From Verrucomicrobiota bacterium (GTDB taxonomy: Bacteria; Verrucomicrobiota; Verrucomicrobiia; Limisphaerales; JADJPG01), in contig JBJOEZ010000009.1 of assembly GCA_046048995.1 (NCBI GenBank), positions 169,535 to 233,534 of the forward strand: a stretch of 64,000 nt of DNA, read 5' to 3'. Shown here one piece after another: positions 47,785 through 51,169 of the stretch (position 1 is its first letter; the number at the start of each line of letters is the position of its first letter). The notes under the pieces are model-generated. The model was not told where the DNA came from. It was given only the letters and a program-made list of their open reading frames with translations, and did not search any database. Position numbers and translations under genes: made by a program.

Positions 47785-48498
47785 TCAGCCCAGCGTCAAC
47801 TCGCGGTAGCGCACGGCCCCCGGCCGGGCACGATCGAGGAGGGCGGCCTCCACGTTGCGGCCTGGCAGCGTGACGGGCGGCACCGGTGGCACCGCCAGGT
47901 CGGCCAGGGGGGTGCCCTCCTGCAGGGCCTGCCAGGCGAGCAGGCAGAGGCCGGCGACGTGCCGGAGGGATTGGGTGGGCTGCACTTGCCCGCGCAACCA
48001 GGCCGCGGCCTCCTCCTCGCGCTTGGGATCCACATGAGCCACGACCAGCCCACCGACCTCGTAGTGGTGATGGCCGTCGTAGCGCACCCGCACCAGCAGA
48101 TCGGACGCCGGGCTCTCGCCCAGCTCGGCCCAGACGGATTCCACGATGCTGGGCGGGGAGAAGATTTGCTCGAAGCTGGCCTTGAGGGCGGGGCTGAGGG
48201 CGAAGCTGATCAGCCGCCGCAGGGTGACGTCGGCGGGCGAGCGCTGGAATCCCTCGAGGTGGGCGGCCTCGATGGCGGACTGACGGAGTTTCTCGATGTC
48301 AACCGGATGGCCGAGGGCGGCGCAGGCGTGGCGGTCGTAAATCTCGAAGACCTTGGAGCGGCCGAGGCCGACCCCGAGCAACAGGATGCCCTCCGGGCGG
48401 GAGACGGCGAAGACGGGCGTGCCGCCGCGCAGCTGCTCGCGGATGTATTCGCGCCGGTTGGCGATGGCTTCCAACCAGCGATAGGGCTCTTCAGTCAT
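47785..48498 (-). CDS. prcA: Bacterial 20S proteasome alpha subunit
   Basis: It is collinear with my memory of M. tuberculosis PrcA: KVFEIYDRHACAALG vs KISELYDRVGFAAAG, and the C-terminal VEAALLDRARPGAVRYRELT vs LEVAVLDANRPRRAFRRIT. It lies directly downstream of prcB. Confidence 0.8.
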   Translation of the reverse strand: MTEEPYRWLEAIANRREYIREQLRGGTPVFAVSRPEGILLLGVGLGRSKVFEIYDRHACAALGHPVDIEKLRQSAIEAAHLEGFQRSPADVTLRRLISFALSPALKASFEQIFSPPSIVESVWAELGESPASDLLVRVRYDGHHHYEVGGLVVAHVDPKREEEAAAWLRGQVQPTQSLRHVAGLCLLAWQALQEGTPLADLAVPPVPPVTLPGRNVEAALLDRARPGAVRYRELTLG

Positions 48499-48520: not shown

Positions 48521-49282
48521 TCAGCCCTGGGCGTCGCGCCAGAAGGCGGCCTGTTCCTCGGTGCTGACGCCGCGGATGCCGGCGGCGGAGAGGAGCTTGA
48601 GGGTGGCGAAGATGCCGCGGTCGGGCTGCACCCCGCCGGTGGCGGTGTCGAACTCGGCGGCGGTGAGGAGCAGGCGGTTGGCCAGGTTGCTGGCCTGGCG
48701 AAGGCTCATGGCGGACGGGCGGGGTTCCCCCCACTTCTCGAGGAAGCTGAGGATGCTCTTGATGCTGCCGCTCCCGGAACCGCTCCCGGCGAAGTTGACC
48801 GCCTCGAACTGGGCGCCGAGGGGGTCATAGAAGTGGATCTGCGGGCGGGCGGCGGGATCGCCGGCCTCGACCCCGGCGAAGATGGGGGCGACGACGCCGA
48901 AACCCTGCAGGGTGCCGGGCAGGTTGTTGCGCAGGAGCTGGGACAGGGCCCGGATCTTGGCCGGCAGGCTCAGGGGCTGCAACTGGCTGCGCCGGTAGAA
49001 CTCGAAGCTGGTCTGCAGGGTGCGCGCCATCTCGAAGGCGGTGGCCGGGACGCCGGCGATGGCCATGAGCGAATGGGAGTCGAGCTCGAGGATTTTCTCG
49101 GTCTGATCGGAGAACACCACGTTGCCGGCGGTGGCCCGGTGGTCGCCGGCGATGACGACGCCCTCCGCGCAATGGAAGGCAAAGACGGTGGTGGCGTGCA
49201 GCGGCTCGACCGCCAGTCCGCCCGCCCCGGCCGGGGCCGGCGCGGCGGGCTTCGGGAGCAGGGCCAGGAAATCGCCGTTCAT
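48521..49282 (-). CDS. prcB: Bacterial 20S proteasome beta subunit (Thr1 protease) with a 30-residue propeptide
   Basis: The propeptide junction reads ..VEPLHA|TTVFAFHCAEGVVIAGDHRATAGNVVFSDQTEK. Thr1, Asp17 and Lys33 sit at the same spacing as in Mtb PrcB ([21 protein letters not shown]..RK). GSGS and DSATGG-like (DTATGG) blocks are present. Confidence 0.88.
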   Translation of the reverse strand: MNGDFLALLPKPAAPAPAGAGGLAVEPLHATTVFAFHCAEGVVIAGDHRATAGNVVFSDQTEKILELDSHSLMAIAGVPATAFEMARTLQTSFEFYRRSQLQPLSLPAKIRALSQLLRNNLPGTLQGFGVVAPIFAGVEAGDPAARPQIHFYDPLGAQFEAVNFAGSGSGSGSIKSILSFLEKWGEPRPSAMSLRQASNLANRLLLTAAEFDTATGGVQPDRGIFATLKLLSAAGIRGVSTEEQAAFWRDAQG

Positions 49283-49455
49283 TGGCCGGTGCGCTGGCGG
49301 TAACGCTTGGCCTGATCCGGGTCCACCCGGCGCATCTTCTTCAGCAACTCCTCCGTGTTCGGCTTCTGCACCTGGGGGGCCCGCGGGCCCTCGCCACCGC
49401 CCCCTCCGCCGGGAGCCGGGGTCATCGGGACGGGTTTGCGAATGGGGTCTGGCAT
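49279..49455 (-). CDS. Pup/UBact-like prokaryotic ubiquitin-like tag (58 aa; 62 aa from TTG 49467)
   Basis: The sequence is MPDPIRKPVPMTPAPGGGGGGEGPRAPQVQKPNTEELLKKMRRVDPDQAKRYRQRTGQ*. The N-terminal half is low-complexity and the C-terminal half helical and basic. It ends in terminal Gly-Gln. Its stop overlaps the prcB ATG (ATGA). It sits between the dop-like gene and prcB. Confidence 0.75.
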   Translation of the reverse strand: MPDPIRKPVPMTPAPGGGGGGEGPRAPQVQKPNTEELLKKMRRVDPDQAKRYRQRTGQ

Positions 49456-49478
49456 AACAAGGGGCAATGGTCCGTTAT

Positions 49479-50999
49479 TTACCGTCGCTTGGCAAATCCC
49501 AGCTGGGCCAATTCCTCCACCTCCCGGGCGGCCTGGATGACCCGCAGGGCCTCCTCAATCTGGCCGGGATCAAAGAGGCCGCGCAAGTCGAGCTCGAGGG
49601 TCATGGAGCGGCCCCGCAGGCGCAGGTAATCCCACTGGGCCGCCTCCACCTGCGGCCCGAATTTCTCAATGCACCGCCCCCGCACCGCCGCCCGGGTCGA
49701 AAGCGGCGGAGCCAGGGCGGCCCCGCCCAGTTCCGCCCCTCCATACGGCAACCGGAAGGCCTGCTGGTCCAGCAGGGCGTAAAAGAGGCCCTCCTCCCGG
49801 TCCAGCCGATGGTAGGCCAGGTCCAGGCTGCGCAGCCAGGGGTCCTCCGGGCCCAGCCCTTCCGCCTCCCGGAATTGCTCCACGCACCGATGCTTGGCAC
49901 ACCAATCCAGCCGGTCGGCACAGGACAACGGTTCCCGCTCCAGGTCGCCCAACACCTCCTCCCACCCCGCCGCCACCGCCTGCCAGTCCGGGCCCAGCCC
50001 CGGACAGAACTCGCGCACCAAGGCGAGGTAACCCCGCTGGACCTCCAGCGCGGTGGTGGCCCGGCCGGCCGCGTCACGGCAGGCCCAGCGCCAGGTGCGA
50101 TCGCGCGACAACGCGCGCAGGGTGCCCACCGGGTCCGCCACCTGCGGCACCCGCGCCAACGGGCAGCCATTGACCAGCGCCTGCAGCACCAGCGCCGTCG
50201 TGCCCACCTTCAGCCAGTTCGCATAGGGGGACAGGTTGGCGTCGCCCACAATGACATGGAACCGCCGGTAGCGGGCCGGATCCGCGTGCGGCTCGTCCCG
50301 CGTGTTGATGAGCGGCCGGCTCTGCATCGTGTCCACGCTCTCCAGTTCCGAGAAGAAGTCCGCGCGCTGCGACACCTGGAATCCCGGCCTGACAAAGCGG
50401 TCCTCCTCCTCCCAGCCATACTTGCCCGCCCCCGCATACACCTGCCGCGTGGCCAGGAAGGCCGCCATGGCCGCGGCCAGCGTGTCCCAGGGCAGGCGGC
50501 GCGGCAGCAGGTAGTTCTCGTGGCAGCCGTAGCTGTGCCCGGCAAAGTCCGTGTTGTTCTTGTAGAGCAGCACCGGGTTGGCCGACCCCTCGTTGAGCGC
50601 CCGGGCGCACTCCATCACCAGGCGGTCGCCCGCCCGGTCCTGCTGCAGGAGCTCCAGCAGCGTGCCGCATTCCGGCGTGCAATACTCCGGGTGCGCGTGG
50701 TCATTGTAAAACCGCGCGCCGTTGCGCAGGGCCACGTCGCTCTTGATCTCCGTGAAGGACAACGGCCGCGCGGCGTCCTGCGCGAAATAGTCCGCCTCGT
50801 CGGTGTCCTGGCGCAACGCCGCCACCCGGAACCCCCGCGCGTCACGGTGCGGATCCTCGCACGAGTAATCCCACCGCATCCGCACCCCGGGCGCGGTCAC
50901 GCTGCGCACCAGGGCAATCGACTCCGCCACCACGTCCAACCCCGCCGGGTCGGCCCGCGTGATGCCCATCTCGGTCTCAAGGCCAAATTGTATGTCCAT
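49479..50999 (-). CDS. dop: Pup-ligase-superfamily enzyme, Dop (deamidase/depupylase) type
   Basis: ATG 50999 lies inside track ORF 49479..51098 (MDIQFGLETEMG). NGARFYNDHAHPEYCTPEC, YKNNTDFAGHSYGCHENYL and INTRDEPHADPARYRRFHVIVGDANL are present. An ~45-residue insertion with RMRWDYSCEDPHRDARGF matches the Dop loop (Mtb Dop RTRWDYEVESPLRDARGF), which is absent in PafA. Confidence 0.8.
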   Translation of the reverse strand: MDIQFGLETEMGITRADPAGLDVVAESIALVRSVTAPGVRMRWDYSCEDPHRDARGFRVAALRQDTDEADYFAQDAARPLSFTEIKSDVALRNGARFYNDHAHPEYCTPECGTLLELLQQDRAGDRLVMECARALNEGSANPVLLYKNNTDFAGHSYGCHENYLLPRRLPWDTLAAAMAAFLATRQVYAGAGKYGWEEEDRFVRPGFQVSQRADFFSELESVDTMQSRPLINTRDEPHADPARYRRFHVIVGDANLSPYANWLKVGTTALVLQALVNGCPLARVPQVADPVGTLRALSRDRTWRWACRDAAGRATTALEVQRGYLALVREFCPGLGPDWQAVAAGWEEVLGDLEREPLSCADRLDWCAKHRCVEQFREAEGLGPEDPWLRSLDLAYHRLDREEGLFYALLDQQAFRLPYGGAELGGAALAPPLSTRAAVRGRCIEKFGPQVEAAQWDYLRLRGRSMTLELDLRGLFDPGQIEEALRVIQAAREVEELAQLGFAKRR

Positions 51000-51169
51000 G
51001 CCGCGCGGGGCCGGCCCCGCCACCTGCTGTTCTACGCGGCCCCGGGAGCCCGGGCAAGCCGCGGAACGCCCCGCCCGGGATGCCGCGCAGTTTTCCATTG
51101 GCCTTTGCCCGGCGGATGTTCACTCTGCCCGGGTTGTTCGCCGCCCCCGCGGGCTTGCCCGCGCTTGCT

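What the first reader, a model, noticed from the sequence alone, without database searches (positions are those of the whole stretch)
49279..49455. Sub-threshold 58-aa ORF ending ..DPDQAKRYRQRTGQ: candidate ubiquitin-like modifier translationally coupled to the proteasome beta subunit
The ORF is short and half low-complexity (PAPGGGGGGEGPRAP), so gene callers could easily drop it. Four features argue that it is real:
- its position between a Dop-type gene and prcB;
- a basic, helical C-terminal half (EELLKKMRRVDPDQAKRYRQR), as expected for a segment that docks on an unfoldase coiled coil or ligase groove;
- a terminal Gly-Gln; Pup ends GGQ/GGE, and the UBact family as I recall it ends R-[ST]-G-[EQ];
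- its TGA overlapping the prcB ATG (caATGAac).

The track start at 49467 is a TTG. ATG 49455 is the more conservative start.
Basis: partly seen in the sequence, partly recalled or inferred. Interest (0 to 1): 0.6.

Follow-up and report, generated by a model that had tools for sequence, protein, structure and literature searches.

The report
UBact protein-tag gene beside proteasome genes

Summary
The 58-codon ORF (window 49455..49279, minus strand) is there exactly as described. It is a textbook member of the UBact family. It scores 81.8 bits on NCBIfam NF033388 (cutoff 35) and 80.8 bits on Pfam PF20513 (cutoff 27.8). It lies between a Dop-type deamidase/depupylase gene and prcB-prcA. Across 78 distinct orthologous genes in Verrucomicrobiota genomes and metagenomes the frame is intact. 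Substitutions fall mostly on third codon positions, and the protein always ends RTG[QE]. ATG 49455 is the conserved start; the TTG 49467 extension is not conserved. The ATGA stop/start overlap with prcB is present in 70 of 78 orthologs. It is kept by a rare CAA Gln codon, which points to selection for the overlap. Actual translational coupling is inferred, not shown. The exact protein is already called as a 58-aa gene with a UBact Pfam hit in public data, and NCBI names close homologs 'ubiquitin-like protein UBact'. The function is inferred from homology to Pup: Dop deamidates the terminal Gln, a PafA-type ligase joins it to lysines, and an Mpa ATPase feeds the target to the 20S proteasome. 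Neither Mpa nor PafA is in this 64-kb window. Such split clusters are common in this phylum.

The parts
49279..49455 (-). UBact coding sequence: 58 aa plus TGA stop; ATG at 49455..49453; ends ...AKRYRQRTGQ*
   Evidence: NF033388 81.8 bits (cutoff 35) and PF20513 80.8 bits (cutoff 27.8). 103 of the 120 closest homologs begin MPD and 88 of 120 are 58 aa long. Variable columns by codon position are 18/9/34 of 35. Synonymous:nonsynonymous codon differences are 4654:1789 in this frame. Nonsynonymous differences dominate in four of the other five frames; the antisense frame that shares third positions is about even.
49456..49467 (-). Four-codon upstream extension (TTG-CCC-CTT-GTT, 'LPLV') of the mechanical ORF; not part of the gene
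   Evidence: The residues before the MPD start differ in every orthologous locus. No homolog alignment supports them.
49279..49282 (-). ATGA stop/start overlap: the UBact TGA shares 2 bases with the prcB ATG
   Evidence: ATGA in 70 of 78 distinct orthologous genes, GTGA in 2, no overlap in 6. The terminal codon is CAA or GAA in 74 of 78, although CAA is only 29 of 280 Gln codons in 15 genes of the window. The prcB N-terminus MNGDFLALLP is conserved from this ATG, with synonymous changes.
49479..50999 (-). Dop-type Pup_ligase-family gene (506 aa; deamidase/depupylase homolog); 23-nt gap to the UBact ATG
   Evidence: PF03136 464 bits. TIGR03688 Dop 410.9 bits against TIGR03686 PafA 319.8 bits, both below their equivalog cutoffs. 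PDB Dop chains 317 bits against PafA 208 bits. GhExE motif GLETE at residues 6-10, catalytic motif NDHAHPEYCTPE with Dop-type His-Ala and Pro, and a Dop-loop-length spacing of 94 residues. The start at M34 of the 539-aa ORF matches orthologs.
48521..49282 (-). prcB, 20S proteasome beta subunit (253 aa) with a 30-residue propeptide; Thr31 is the predicted catalytic Thr1
   Evidence: PF00227 86 bits. TIGR03690 131.9 bits, below its cutoff of 191.9. Residue 31 aligns with residue 1 of the mature Rhodococcus and M. tuberculosis beta chains.
47785..48498 (-). prcA, divergent 20S proteasome alpha subunit (237 aa); 22-nt gap after prcB
   Evidence: TIGR03691 69.3 bits, below its cutoff of 139. No Pfam hit. 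PDB bacterial alpha subunits at E 6e-9. 74% identical to the PrcA of the complete cluster in L033.

Best explanation
Window 49455..49279 (minus strand) encodes UBact, the Pup-like small protein modifier of non-actinobacterial bacteria that carry a proteasome. It is the second gene of a four-gene operon: dop-type gene, ubact, prcB, prcA.

Shown here:
- It is a family member.
- It is under purifying selection as a protein.
- Its start is ATG 49455.
- Its C-terminus RTGQ and its 4-base overlap with prcB are conserved.

Inferred from the homologous Pup-proteasome system of Actinobacteria:
- The terminal Gln is deamidated to Glu by the adjacent Dop-type enzyme.
- A PafA-type ligase, encoded outside this window, phosphorylates the Glu gamma-carboxylate and joins it to lysine side chains of target proteins.
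- The helical, basic C-terminal half of the tag is captured by an Mpa-type AAA ATPase, also outside the window, which unfolds the target into the PrcA/PrcB 20S core.
- Dop also removes the tag.

The ATGA overlap probably lets ribosomes that finish ubact reinitiate on prcB. That would tie production of the tag to production of the protease.
For: - Family membership. All 120 listed homologs carry PF20513, and NCBI names several of them 'ubiquitin-like protein UBact'.
- Conservation: 25 of the 26 species-level genome loci with sequence downstream of dop carry the ORF. There are 78 distinct orthologous genes in all, every one ending RTG[QE].
- Family-wide C-terminus: 123 of 150 representatives end G[QE].
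- Context: the canonical order in relatives is Mpa-Dop-UBact-PrcB-PrcA-PafA.
- Dop-type identity of the neighbouring enzyme.
- Active-type beta subunit.
- Shape of the tag: disordered N-terminal half plus two C-terminal helices. This matches the bihelical core with a G[EQ] tail described for Pup-like proteins, including verrucomicrobial ones (PMC2588565).
- Weak profile similarity to M. tuberculosis Pup over the last 26 residues.
- Selection on the overlap.
Against: - No experiment on UBact conjugation was found. 21 papers hold the word, and those read in full only cite or mention it. Every mechanistic step is therefore by analogy.
- Neither Mpa nor a PafA-type paralog is present in the 64-kb window, so the completeness of the pathway in this genome is unverified.
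- The second paralog of verrucomicrobial clusters scores about equally on the Dop and PafA models (271.8 against 255.2 bits). It also lacks part of the actinobacterial PafA signature. Which enzyme ligates is an inference.
- The charge of the C-terminal half is opposite to that of Pup: net +4 against about -9, counted from the sequences. Binding details cannot simply be transferred.
- No Shine-Dalgarno-like sequence precedes either start.
Confidence: 0.9

Rival explanations
1. UBact is made but is not a covalent degradation tag. It would act non-covalently, for example as a regulator or assembly factor of the proteasome or of Dop. Alternatively, its conjugation would serve regulation rather than proteolysis.
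For: No experimental demonstration of UBact conjugation was found. The module in the window lacks ligase and unfoldase genes. Pup-like systems without linked proteasome genes are proposed to be regulatory (PMC2588565).
Against: A terminal G[QE] with a strictly conserved RYRQRTG motif is what a gamma-glutamyl ligation substrate needs. In most relatives a second Pup_ligase paralog and Mpa sit in the same cluster. Stand-alone PafA-type genes exist in close relatives, so the ligase is probably elsewhere in the genome.
Confidence: 0.07
2. It is simply an ortholog of actinobacterial Pup and should be filed in the Pup family rather than in a separate UBact family.
For: Iyer et al. 2008 listed verrucomicrobial proteins of this kind as Pup orthologs with a G[EQ] terminus. 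Both proteins have an N-terminal Gly run, an LL-containing helix and a terminal G-Q. hhalign finds a 26-column match.
Against: There is no hit to the Pfam Pup model even at E<=10 and none to Pup chains in the PDB. The hhalign probability is only 27%. The ending is TGQ and not GGQ. The charge of the helical half is reversed. The curated databases keep two families.
Confidence: 0.02
3. The ORF is a chance open frame in G+C-rich spacer DNA, or only a leader ORF whose translation, not its product, matters for prcB expression.
For: Chance ORFs are very abundant here. Half the sequence looks low-complexity. The stop overlaps the prcB start.
Against: The amino-acid sequence is conserved across genomes whose Dop proteins are only 55-78% identical. 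34 of 35 third positions vary against 9 of 35 second positions, and synonymous:nonsynonymous differences are 4654:1789. HMM scores are far above the cutoffs. Six orthologs keep the protein without any overlap.
Confidence: 0.01

Closest known systems
UBact (ubiquitin bacterial; Lehmann, Udasin, Livneh and Ciechanover 2017, BBRC 483:946; NCBIfam NF033388, Pfam PF20513)
   Same: Same size class (58 aa). Same C-terminal motif ...RYRQR-T-G-Q. Same position between the Dop-type gene and prcB. The host lineage is Verrucomicrobiota, one of the Gram-negative phyla where the family occurs. Scores are well above both curated cutoffs.
   Different: Nothing at the level of the protein. The gene cluster here is a reduced four-gene module without adjacent Mpa and PafA. 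Most relatives have the six-gene cluster.
Pup, prokaryotic ubiquitin-like protein of Actinobacteria (Pfam PF05639; e.g. M. tuberculosis Rv2111c, PDB 3M9D and 7PX9)
   Same: A small, largely disordered protein with an N-terminal Gly run and a helical C-terminal half. Terminal Gly-Gln needs deamidation by Dop. Encoded next to dop and prcBA. Weak alignment of the last 26 residues.
   Different: No significant match to the Pup HMM or to Pup chains. Ends TGQ and not GGQ. The C-terminal half is basic (net +4) whereas Pup's is strongly acidic (about -9). A four-residue shorter linker between the helix and the tail in the hhalign alignment.
Pup-proteasome gene cluster of Actinobacteria and Nitrospirae (mpa-dop-pup-prcB-prcA ... 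pafA)
   Same: The same order dop - tag - prcB - prcA. The Dop-type enzyme has the GhExE and D-H-A motifs and a Dop-loop-length insertion. The beta subunit has a propeptide and a catalytic Thr.
   Different: All four proteins fall below the equivalog cutoffs trained on Actinobacteria. Mpa and PafA are not linked here. The PafA-position paralog of relatives cannot be told from Dop by the actinobacterial models.

Membership tests
UBact (NF033388 / PF20513) | Score above the curated cutoff of the family HMMs | tested here: met
   NF033388 81.8 bits against cutoff 35, residues 10-62 of the 62-aa form on profile positions 2-54 of 54. PF20513 80.8 bits against cutoff 27.8.
UBact (NF033388 / PF20513) | C-terminus R-[TS]-G-[EQ] directly followed by the stop codon | tested here: met
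   Ends RTGQ*. 120 of the 120 close homologs end RTG[QE]. 119 of 150 family representatives end R[TS]G[QE].
UBact (NF033388 / PF20513) | Short stand-alone protein of about 50-70 aa | tested here: met
   58 aa from the conserved ATG. 88 of 120 homologs are exactly 58 aa.
UBact (NF033388 / PF20513) | Encoded beside a Dop/PafA-family gene and 20S proteasome subunit genes | tested here: met
   Dop-type gene 23 nt upstream, prcB overlapping by 4 nt, prcA next. The same order holds in relatives.
UBact (NF033388 / PF20513) | Host outside Actinobacteria (Gram-negative phyla) | tested here: met
   The closest genomic loci are nearly all Verrucomicrobiota (Limisphaerales, Pedosphaera, Verrucomicrobiales) MAGs. 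NCBI names on homologs are mostly Verrucomicrobia.
UBact (NF033388 / PF20513) | Covalent attachment through the C-terminal Glu to lysines of target proteins | not testable with these tools
   Needs mass spectrometry or in vitro ligation. No experimental paper was found in the library.
Pup (PF05639) | Match to the Pup family HMM | tested here: not met
   No PF05639 hit at E<=10. No Pup chain among the PDB hits at E<=10.
Pup (PF05639) | C-terminal Gly-Gly-[Gln/Glu] | tested here: not met
   Ends Thr-Gly-Gln. M. tuberculosis Pup ends KGGQ.
Pup (PF05639) | Detectable homology to Pup by profile comparison | tested here: inconclusive
   hhalign of the UBact alignment against M. tuberculosis Pup: 26 columns, 31% identity, probability 27%, E 6.7e-4.
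Dop (TIGR03688), for the upstream neighbour | Dop rather than PafA signature: higher Dop model score, D-H-A after the catalytic Asp without an inserted residue, Pro at position 15 of Hecht et al., and a Dop-loop insertion | tested here: met
   410.9 against 319.8 bits, both below the equivalog cutoffs. PDB Dop 317 against PafA 208 bits. NDHAHPEYCTPE with a 94-residue spacing from GhExE.
Translationally coupled gene pair (ubact-prcB) | Conserved stop/start overlap, with evidence of selection on it | tested here: met
   ATGA in 70 of 78 orthologs. The rare CAA/GAA terminal codon occurs in 74 of 78, against 10% CAA among Gln codons in 15 window genes.
Translationally coupled gene pair (ubact-prcB) | prcB translation depends on translation of ubact | not testable with these tools
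   Needs reporter fusions or ribosome profiling.

The most novel reading that the evidence does not exclude
In this lineage the reduced four-gene module (Dop-type enzyme, UBact, PrcB, PrcA) might be self-sufficient. The genome would lack a PafA-type ligase and an Mpa, or both. The Dop-type enzyme would then both deamidate and ligate UBact, or UBact would act on the proteasome without an Mpa-type unfoldase. The evidence does not exclude this, because only 64 kb of the genome is available. The same four-gene module recurs in at least four other genomic contexts.

Against it:
- The enzyme keeps an unaltered Dop signature.
- Stand-alone PafA-type genes exist in close relatives.
Probability: 0.05. 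Interest if true: 0.6.

Novelty: already known. Interest (0 to 1): 0.12.

Why it matters
For annotation, the window carries a correctly placed UBact gene whose start is ATG 49455. The upstream dop gene should start at 50999, so that it keeps its ATP-binding GhExE motif.

Biologically this adds nothing new about the family. The comparative data gathered here do sharpen some points:
- UBact is under strong purifying selection.
- Its Gly run is conserved.
- Its overlap with prcB is kept by a rare codon.
- The six-gene cluster breaks up in several ways in Verrucomicrobiota.

The real open question is still experimental: whether UBact is actually conjugated and targets proteins to the proteasome. 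No study addressing it was found. A cultivable verrucomicrobium with this operon would be a suitable test system.

Tried and rejected
- **Chance ORF.** Rejected on conservation and codon-position statistics.
- **TTG 49467 start.** Rejected. The four extra residues are not conserved, and homologs start MPD or MPE.
- **Internal ATG at Met11.** Not supported. Residues 1-10 (MPDxxRKPxP) are conserved.
- **Membership in Pup proper.** The HMM and PDB searches were negative.
- **Mpa or a second Pup_ligase paralog in the window.** Not found by tblastn with verrucomicrobial Mpa, PafA, TPR-AAA and TPR proteins. Pfam scans of 24 ORFs of the window found none either.
- **Does a Q terminus go with an adjacent Dop, and an E terminus with its absence?** No such pattern. 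All 14 loci without Dop within 2-8 kb still end in Q, and all 10 E-terminal genes have an adjacent Dop.
- **Shared flanking synteny with other four-gene-module loci.** None beyond the operon.
- **Promoter and terminator scan of the operon region.** Nothing above the shuffled expectation.
- **The original UBact paper.** Not held in the library. Its content is cited from my own knowledge and from reference lists.
- **Structure search.** Not run, because the model is a disordered chain with two short helices and fold matches would be meaningless.

Full report
**Observation.** On the minus strand an ORF runs from TTG 49467, or ATG 49455, to TGA 49281..49279. It encodes (LPLV)MPDPIRKPVPMTPAPGGGGGGEGPRAPQVQKPNTEELLKKMRRVDPDQAKRYRQRTGQ. 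The stop overlaps the ATG of the next gene as ATGA (49282..49279). The window is 69.3% G+C, and 82 ORFs of 40 aa or more overlap the surrounding 11 kb. An open frame of this size is therefore not evidence on its own.

**Identity.** The protein matches NCBIfam NF033388 'ubiquitin-like protein UBact' at 81.8 bits (cutoff 35), covering profile positions 2-54 of 54. It matches Pfam PF20513 'UBact' at 80.8 bits (cutoff 27.8). Nothing else in Pfam matches even at E<=10; in particular the Pup family does not. No solved structure is related by sequence.

**Neighbours.**
- Upstream, across a 23-nt gap, lies a Pup_ligase-family gene (PF03136, 464 bits).
  - It scores higher on the Dop model than on the PafA model: 410.9 against 319.8 bits.
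  - It scores higher on Dop than on PafA crystal-structure sequences: 317 against 208 bits.
  - It has the GhExE motif at residues 6-10 and the catalytic-Asp segment NDHAHPEYCTPE. That segment carries the Dop-type His-Ala and Pro of Hecht et al. 2020 (PMC7947786, Table 1).
  - The spacing between the two motifs is 94 residues, long enough for a Dop-loop, which its PafA-position paralog in relatives lacks.
- Downstream lies prcB. Its Thr31 aligns with Thr1 of the mature Rhodococcus and M. tuberculosis beta subunits, so the propeptide is 30 residues.
- After prcB comes a divergent prcA.

**Conservation.**
- A database search gave 392 homologs at E<=1e-3. The 120 listed all carry PF20513. Of these, 116 end RTGQ and 4 end RTGE, 103 start MPD and 5 start MPE, and 88 are exactly 58 aa. 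NCBI names several of them 'ubiquitin-like protein UBact', mostly from Verrucomicrobia MAGs.
- A scan of one genome per species found 31 loci with a Dop ortholog (55-78% identity), nearly all Verrucomicrobiota. Of the 26 loci with sequence downstream of dop, 25 carry the ORF.
- Over the last 35 codons in 26 loci, variable columns by codon position number 18, 9 and 34. Pairwise codon differences are 4654 synonymous against 1789 nonsynonymous in this frame. In four of the other five frames nonsynonymous differences dominate. The antisense frame that shares third positions is about even, as expected.
- The residues before Met1 are not conserved, whereas MPDxxRKPxP is. ATG 49455 is therefore the start.
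- The Gly run is conserved too: G17-G19 and G21 are invariant.
- A profile search of 1.84 billion cluster representatives found 172 at E<=1e-3. Of the best 150, 123 end G[QE] and 119 end R[TS]G[QE]. The exceptions look like read-through, frameshifted or truncated calls.
- The exact 58-aa protein is already a called gene with a UBact Pfam hit on a public 5.4-kb contig identical to this part of the window.

**Stop/start overlap.** A metagenome scan added more loci, giving 78 distinct orthologous genes.
- 70 have ATGA, 2 have GTGA and 6 have no overlap.
- The terminal codon is CAA or GAA in 74 of 78. Yet CAA makes up only 29 of 280 Gln codons in 15 genes of the window.
- The PrcB N-terminus MNGDFLALLP is conserved from that ATG, with synonymous changes.

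So the overlapping ATG is the real prcB start and is under selection. Termination-reinitiation coupling is a reasonable inference but is not shown. No Shine-Dalgarno-like sequence precedes either start. No promoter-like or terminator-like site stands out inside the operon.

**Shape and relation to Pup.**
- AlphaFold2 on a 40-sequence alignment predicts no secondary structure for residues 1-33. It predicts two helices, 34-43 and 46-56, at pLDDT 75-83.
- This fits the bihelical core with an extended G[EQ] tail that Iyer, Burroughs and Aravind described in 2008 for Pup-like proteins, including verrucomicrobial ones (PMC2588565).
- I recalled the M. tuberculosis Pup sequence and confirmed it as identical to PDB 7PX9 chain G.
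- hhalign aligns only the last 26 UBact residues to it, at probability 27% and E 6.7e-4: NTEELLKKMRRVDPDQ----AKRYRQRTGQ against ETDDLLDEIDDVLEENAEDFVRAYVQKGGQ.
- Counted from the sequences, this segment has net charge +4 in UBact and about -9 in Pup.
- UBact therefore works like Pup by every sequence feature that can be checked, but it is not a member of the Pup family as curated.

**Cluster architecture.**
- In most relatives the order is Mpa-Dop-UBact-PrcB-PrcA-PafA.
- The window has only Dop-UBact-PrcB-PrcA. It is flanked by a divergent glucan phosphorylase gene and a GDSL hydrolase gene.
- tblastn with verrucomicrobial Mpa and PafA finds nothing else in the 64 kb.
- The same four-gene module occurs in other, unrelated contexts: L002, L004, L035 and a 174-kb JGI contig.
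- Conversely, six metagenomic loci carry a PafA-type gene with 7-10 kb of upstream sequence free of the other components.
- Fourteen loci carry UBact-PrcB-PrcA-PafA with no Dop within 2-8 kb, and all fourteen still end in Gln.

The cluster is thus often split. The ordinary reading is that Mpa and PafA lie elsewhere in this genome. This could not be verified.

**Caveat on the ligase.** The PafA-position paralog of verrucomicrobial clusters scores about equally on the Dop and PafA models (271.8 against 255.2 bits). Its catalytic segment YIDMGHLEYCTPE lacks the inserted residue of actinobacterial PafA and has a Dop-like Pro. Calling it the ligase rests on its architecture and position.

**Mechanism.**
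- Shown: a conserved, selected 58-aa UBact protein ending RTGQ. It is encoded between a Dop-type enzyme gene and the genes of an active-type 20S proteasome, and it overlaps prcB.
- Inferred from the Pup system: Dop deamidates Gln58 to Glu. A PafA-type ligase joins the Glu gamma-carboxylate to target lysines. Mpa binds the helical half and feeds the target to PrcAB. Dop also removes the tag.
- Literature: the UBact description (Lehmann et al. 2017, BBRC 483:946) is not held in the library and appears only in reference lists and reviews. I found no experimental test of UBact conjugation.

**Verdict.** The thing is a known family, recognised by standard annotation, so novelty is 'already known' and interest is low. 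The only non-trivial residue is the reduced four-gene module. Its most novel reading, a self-sufficient Dop-only system, I rate at about 5%.

Noticed in passing
window 49479-51098 (-): The mechanical ORF for the Dop-type gene is 539 aa. Orthologs and the GhExE motif (GLETE at residues 6-10) support a start at Met34, which is ATG 50999 and gives 506 aa. The public gene call on the identical contig L032 is 496 aa and starts after the GhExE ATP-binding motif, so that call is probably truncated.
   Followed up: yes
whole window 1-64000; L002, L004, L035, L040, L066, L077, L081, L084: There is no Mpa ATPase and no PafA-type paralog anywhere in the window. The six-gene UBact-proteasome cluster is often split in Verrucomicrobiota. 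Four-gene Dop-UBact-PrcB-PrcA modules, stand-alone PafA-type genes, and UBact-PrcB-PrcA-PafA modules without Dop all occur.
   Followed up: partly
L033 14999-16348; L040 10001-11347; alignment A2: The PafA-position paralog of verrucomicrobial clusters scores about equally on the Dop and PafA equivalog models (about 272 against 255 bits). Its catalytic segment YIDMGHLEYCTPE lacks the actinobacterial PafA insertion and has a Dop-like Pro. The residues that separate Dop from PafA in Actinobacteria do not all carry over.
   Followed up: partly
window 49390-49410 (-), UBact residues 16-22: The Gly run that looks like low-complexity filler is conserved: G17-G19 and G21 are invariant in 40 homologs. 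M. tuberculosis Pup has a GGGGG run at a similar N-terminal position. Its role is unknown.
   Followed up: partly
window 49279-49359 (-), UBact residues 33-58: The helical C-terminal half is basic (net +4), whereas the matching part of M. tuberculosis Pup is strongly acidic (about -9). This implies changed electrostatics on the partner surfaces of Mpa, Dop and PafA (charges counted from the sequences).
   Followed up: no
window 47785-48498 (-): The proteasome alpha subunit is divergent. It has no Pfam Proteasome hit at E<=0.01, scores 69 bits on TIGR03691 against a cutoff of 139, and matches bacterial alpha subunits in the PDB only at E 6e-9.
   Followed up: partly
L033 11677-14996: In one Limisphaerales MAG, three extra genes sit between prcA and the PafA-type gene. 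They encode a 220-aa protein with no Pfam hit, a TPR + AAA ATPase and a TPR protein. They may be accessory factors of the system.
   Followed up: no
L018 3520-6179: A Verrucomicrobiales MAG contig has a Dop ortholog followed by a convergent 340-aa ORF with a hydrophobic, membrane-protein-like sequence (no family search was run on it). It has no UBact and no proteasome genes downstream.
   Followed up: partly
L003, L008, L028; proteins P0013, P0040, P0120: Loci and proteins of clearly verrucomicrobial type sit in MAGs labelled Gemmataceae, Bifidobacterium, Methylomirabilota, Binatia and Saccharimonadales. This is most likely binning contamination rather than horizontal transfer. L003 and L004 are nearly identical yet carry different labels.
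   Followed up: no
window 51000-51098: With the corrected Dop start at 50999, the 539-aa ORF no longer overlaps the divergent glucan phosphorylase ORF, which starts at 51080 or further in. About 80 nt are left as a shared divergent promoter region. No sigma-70-like site was found there.
   Followed up: partly
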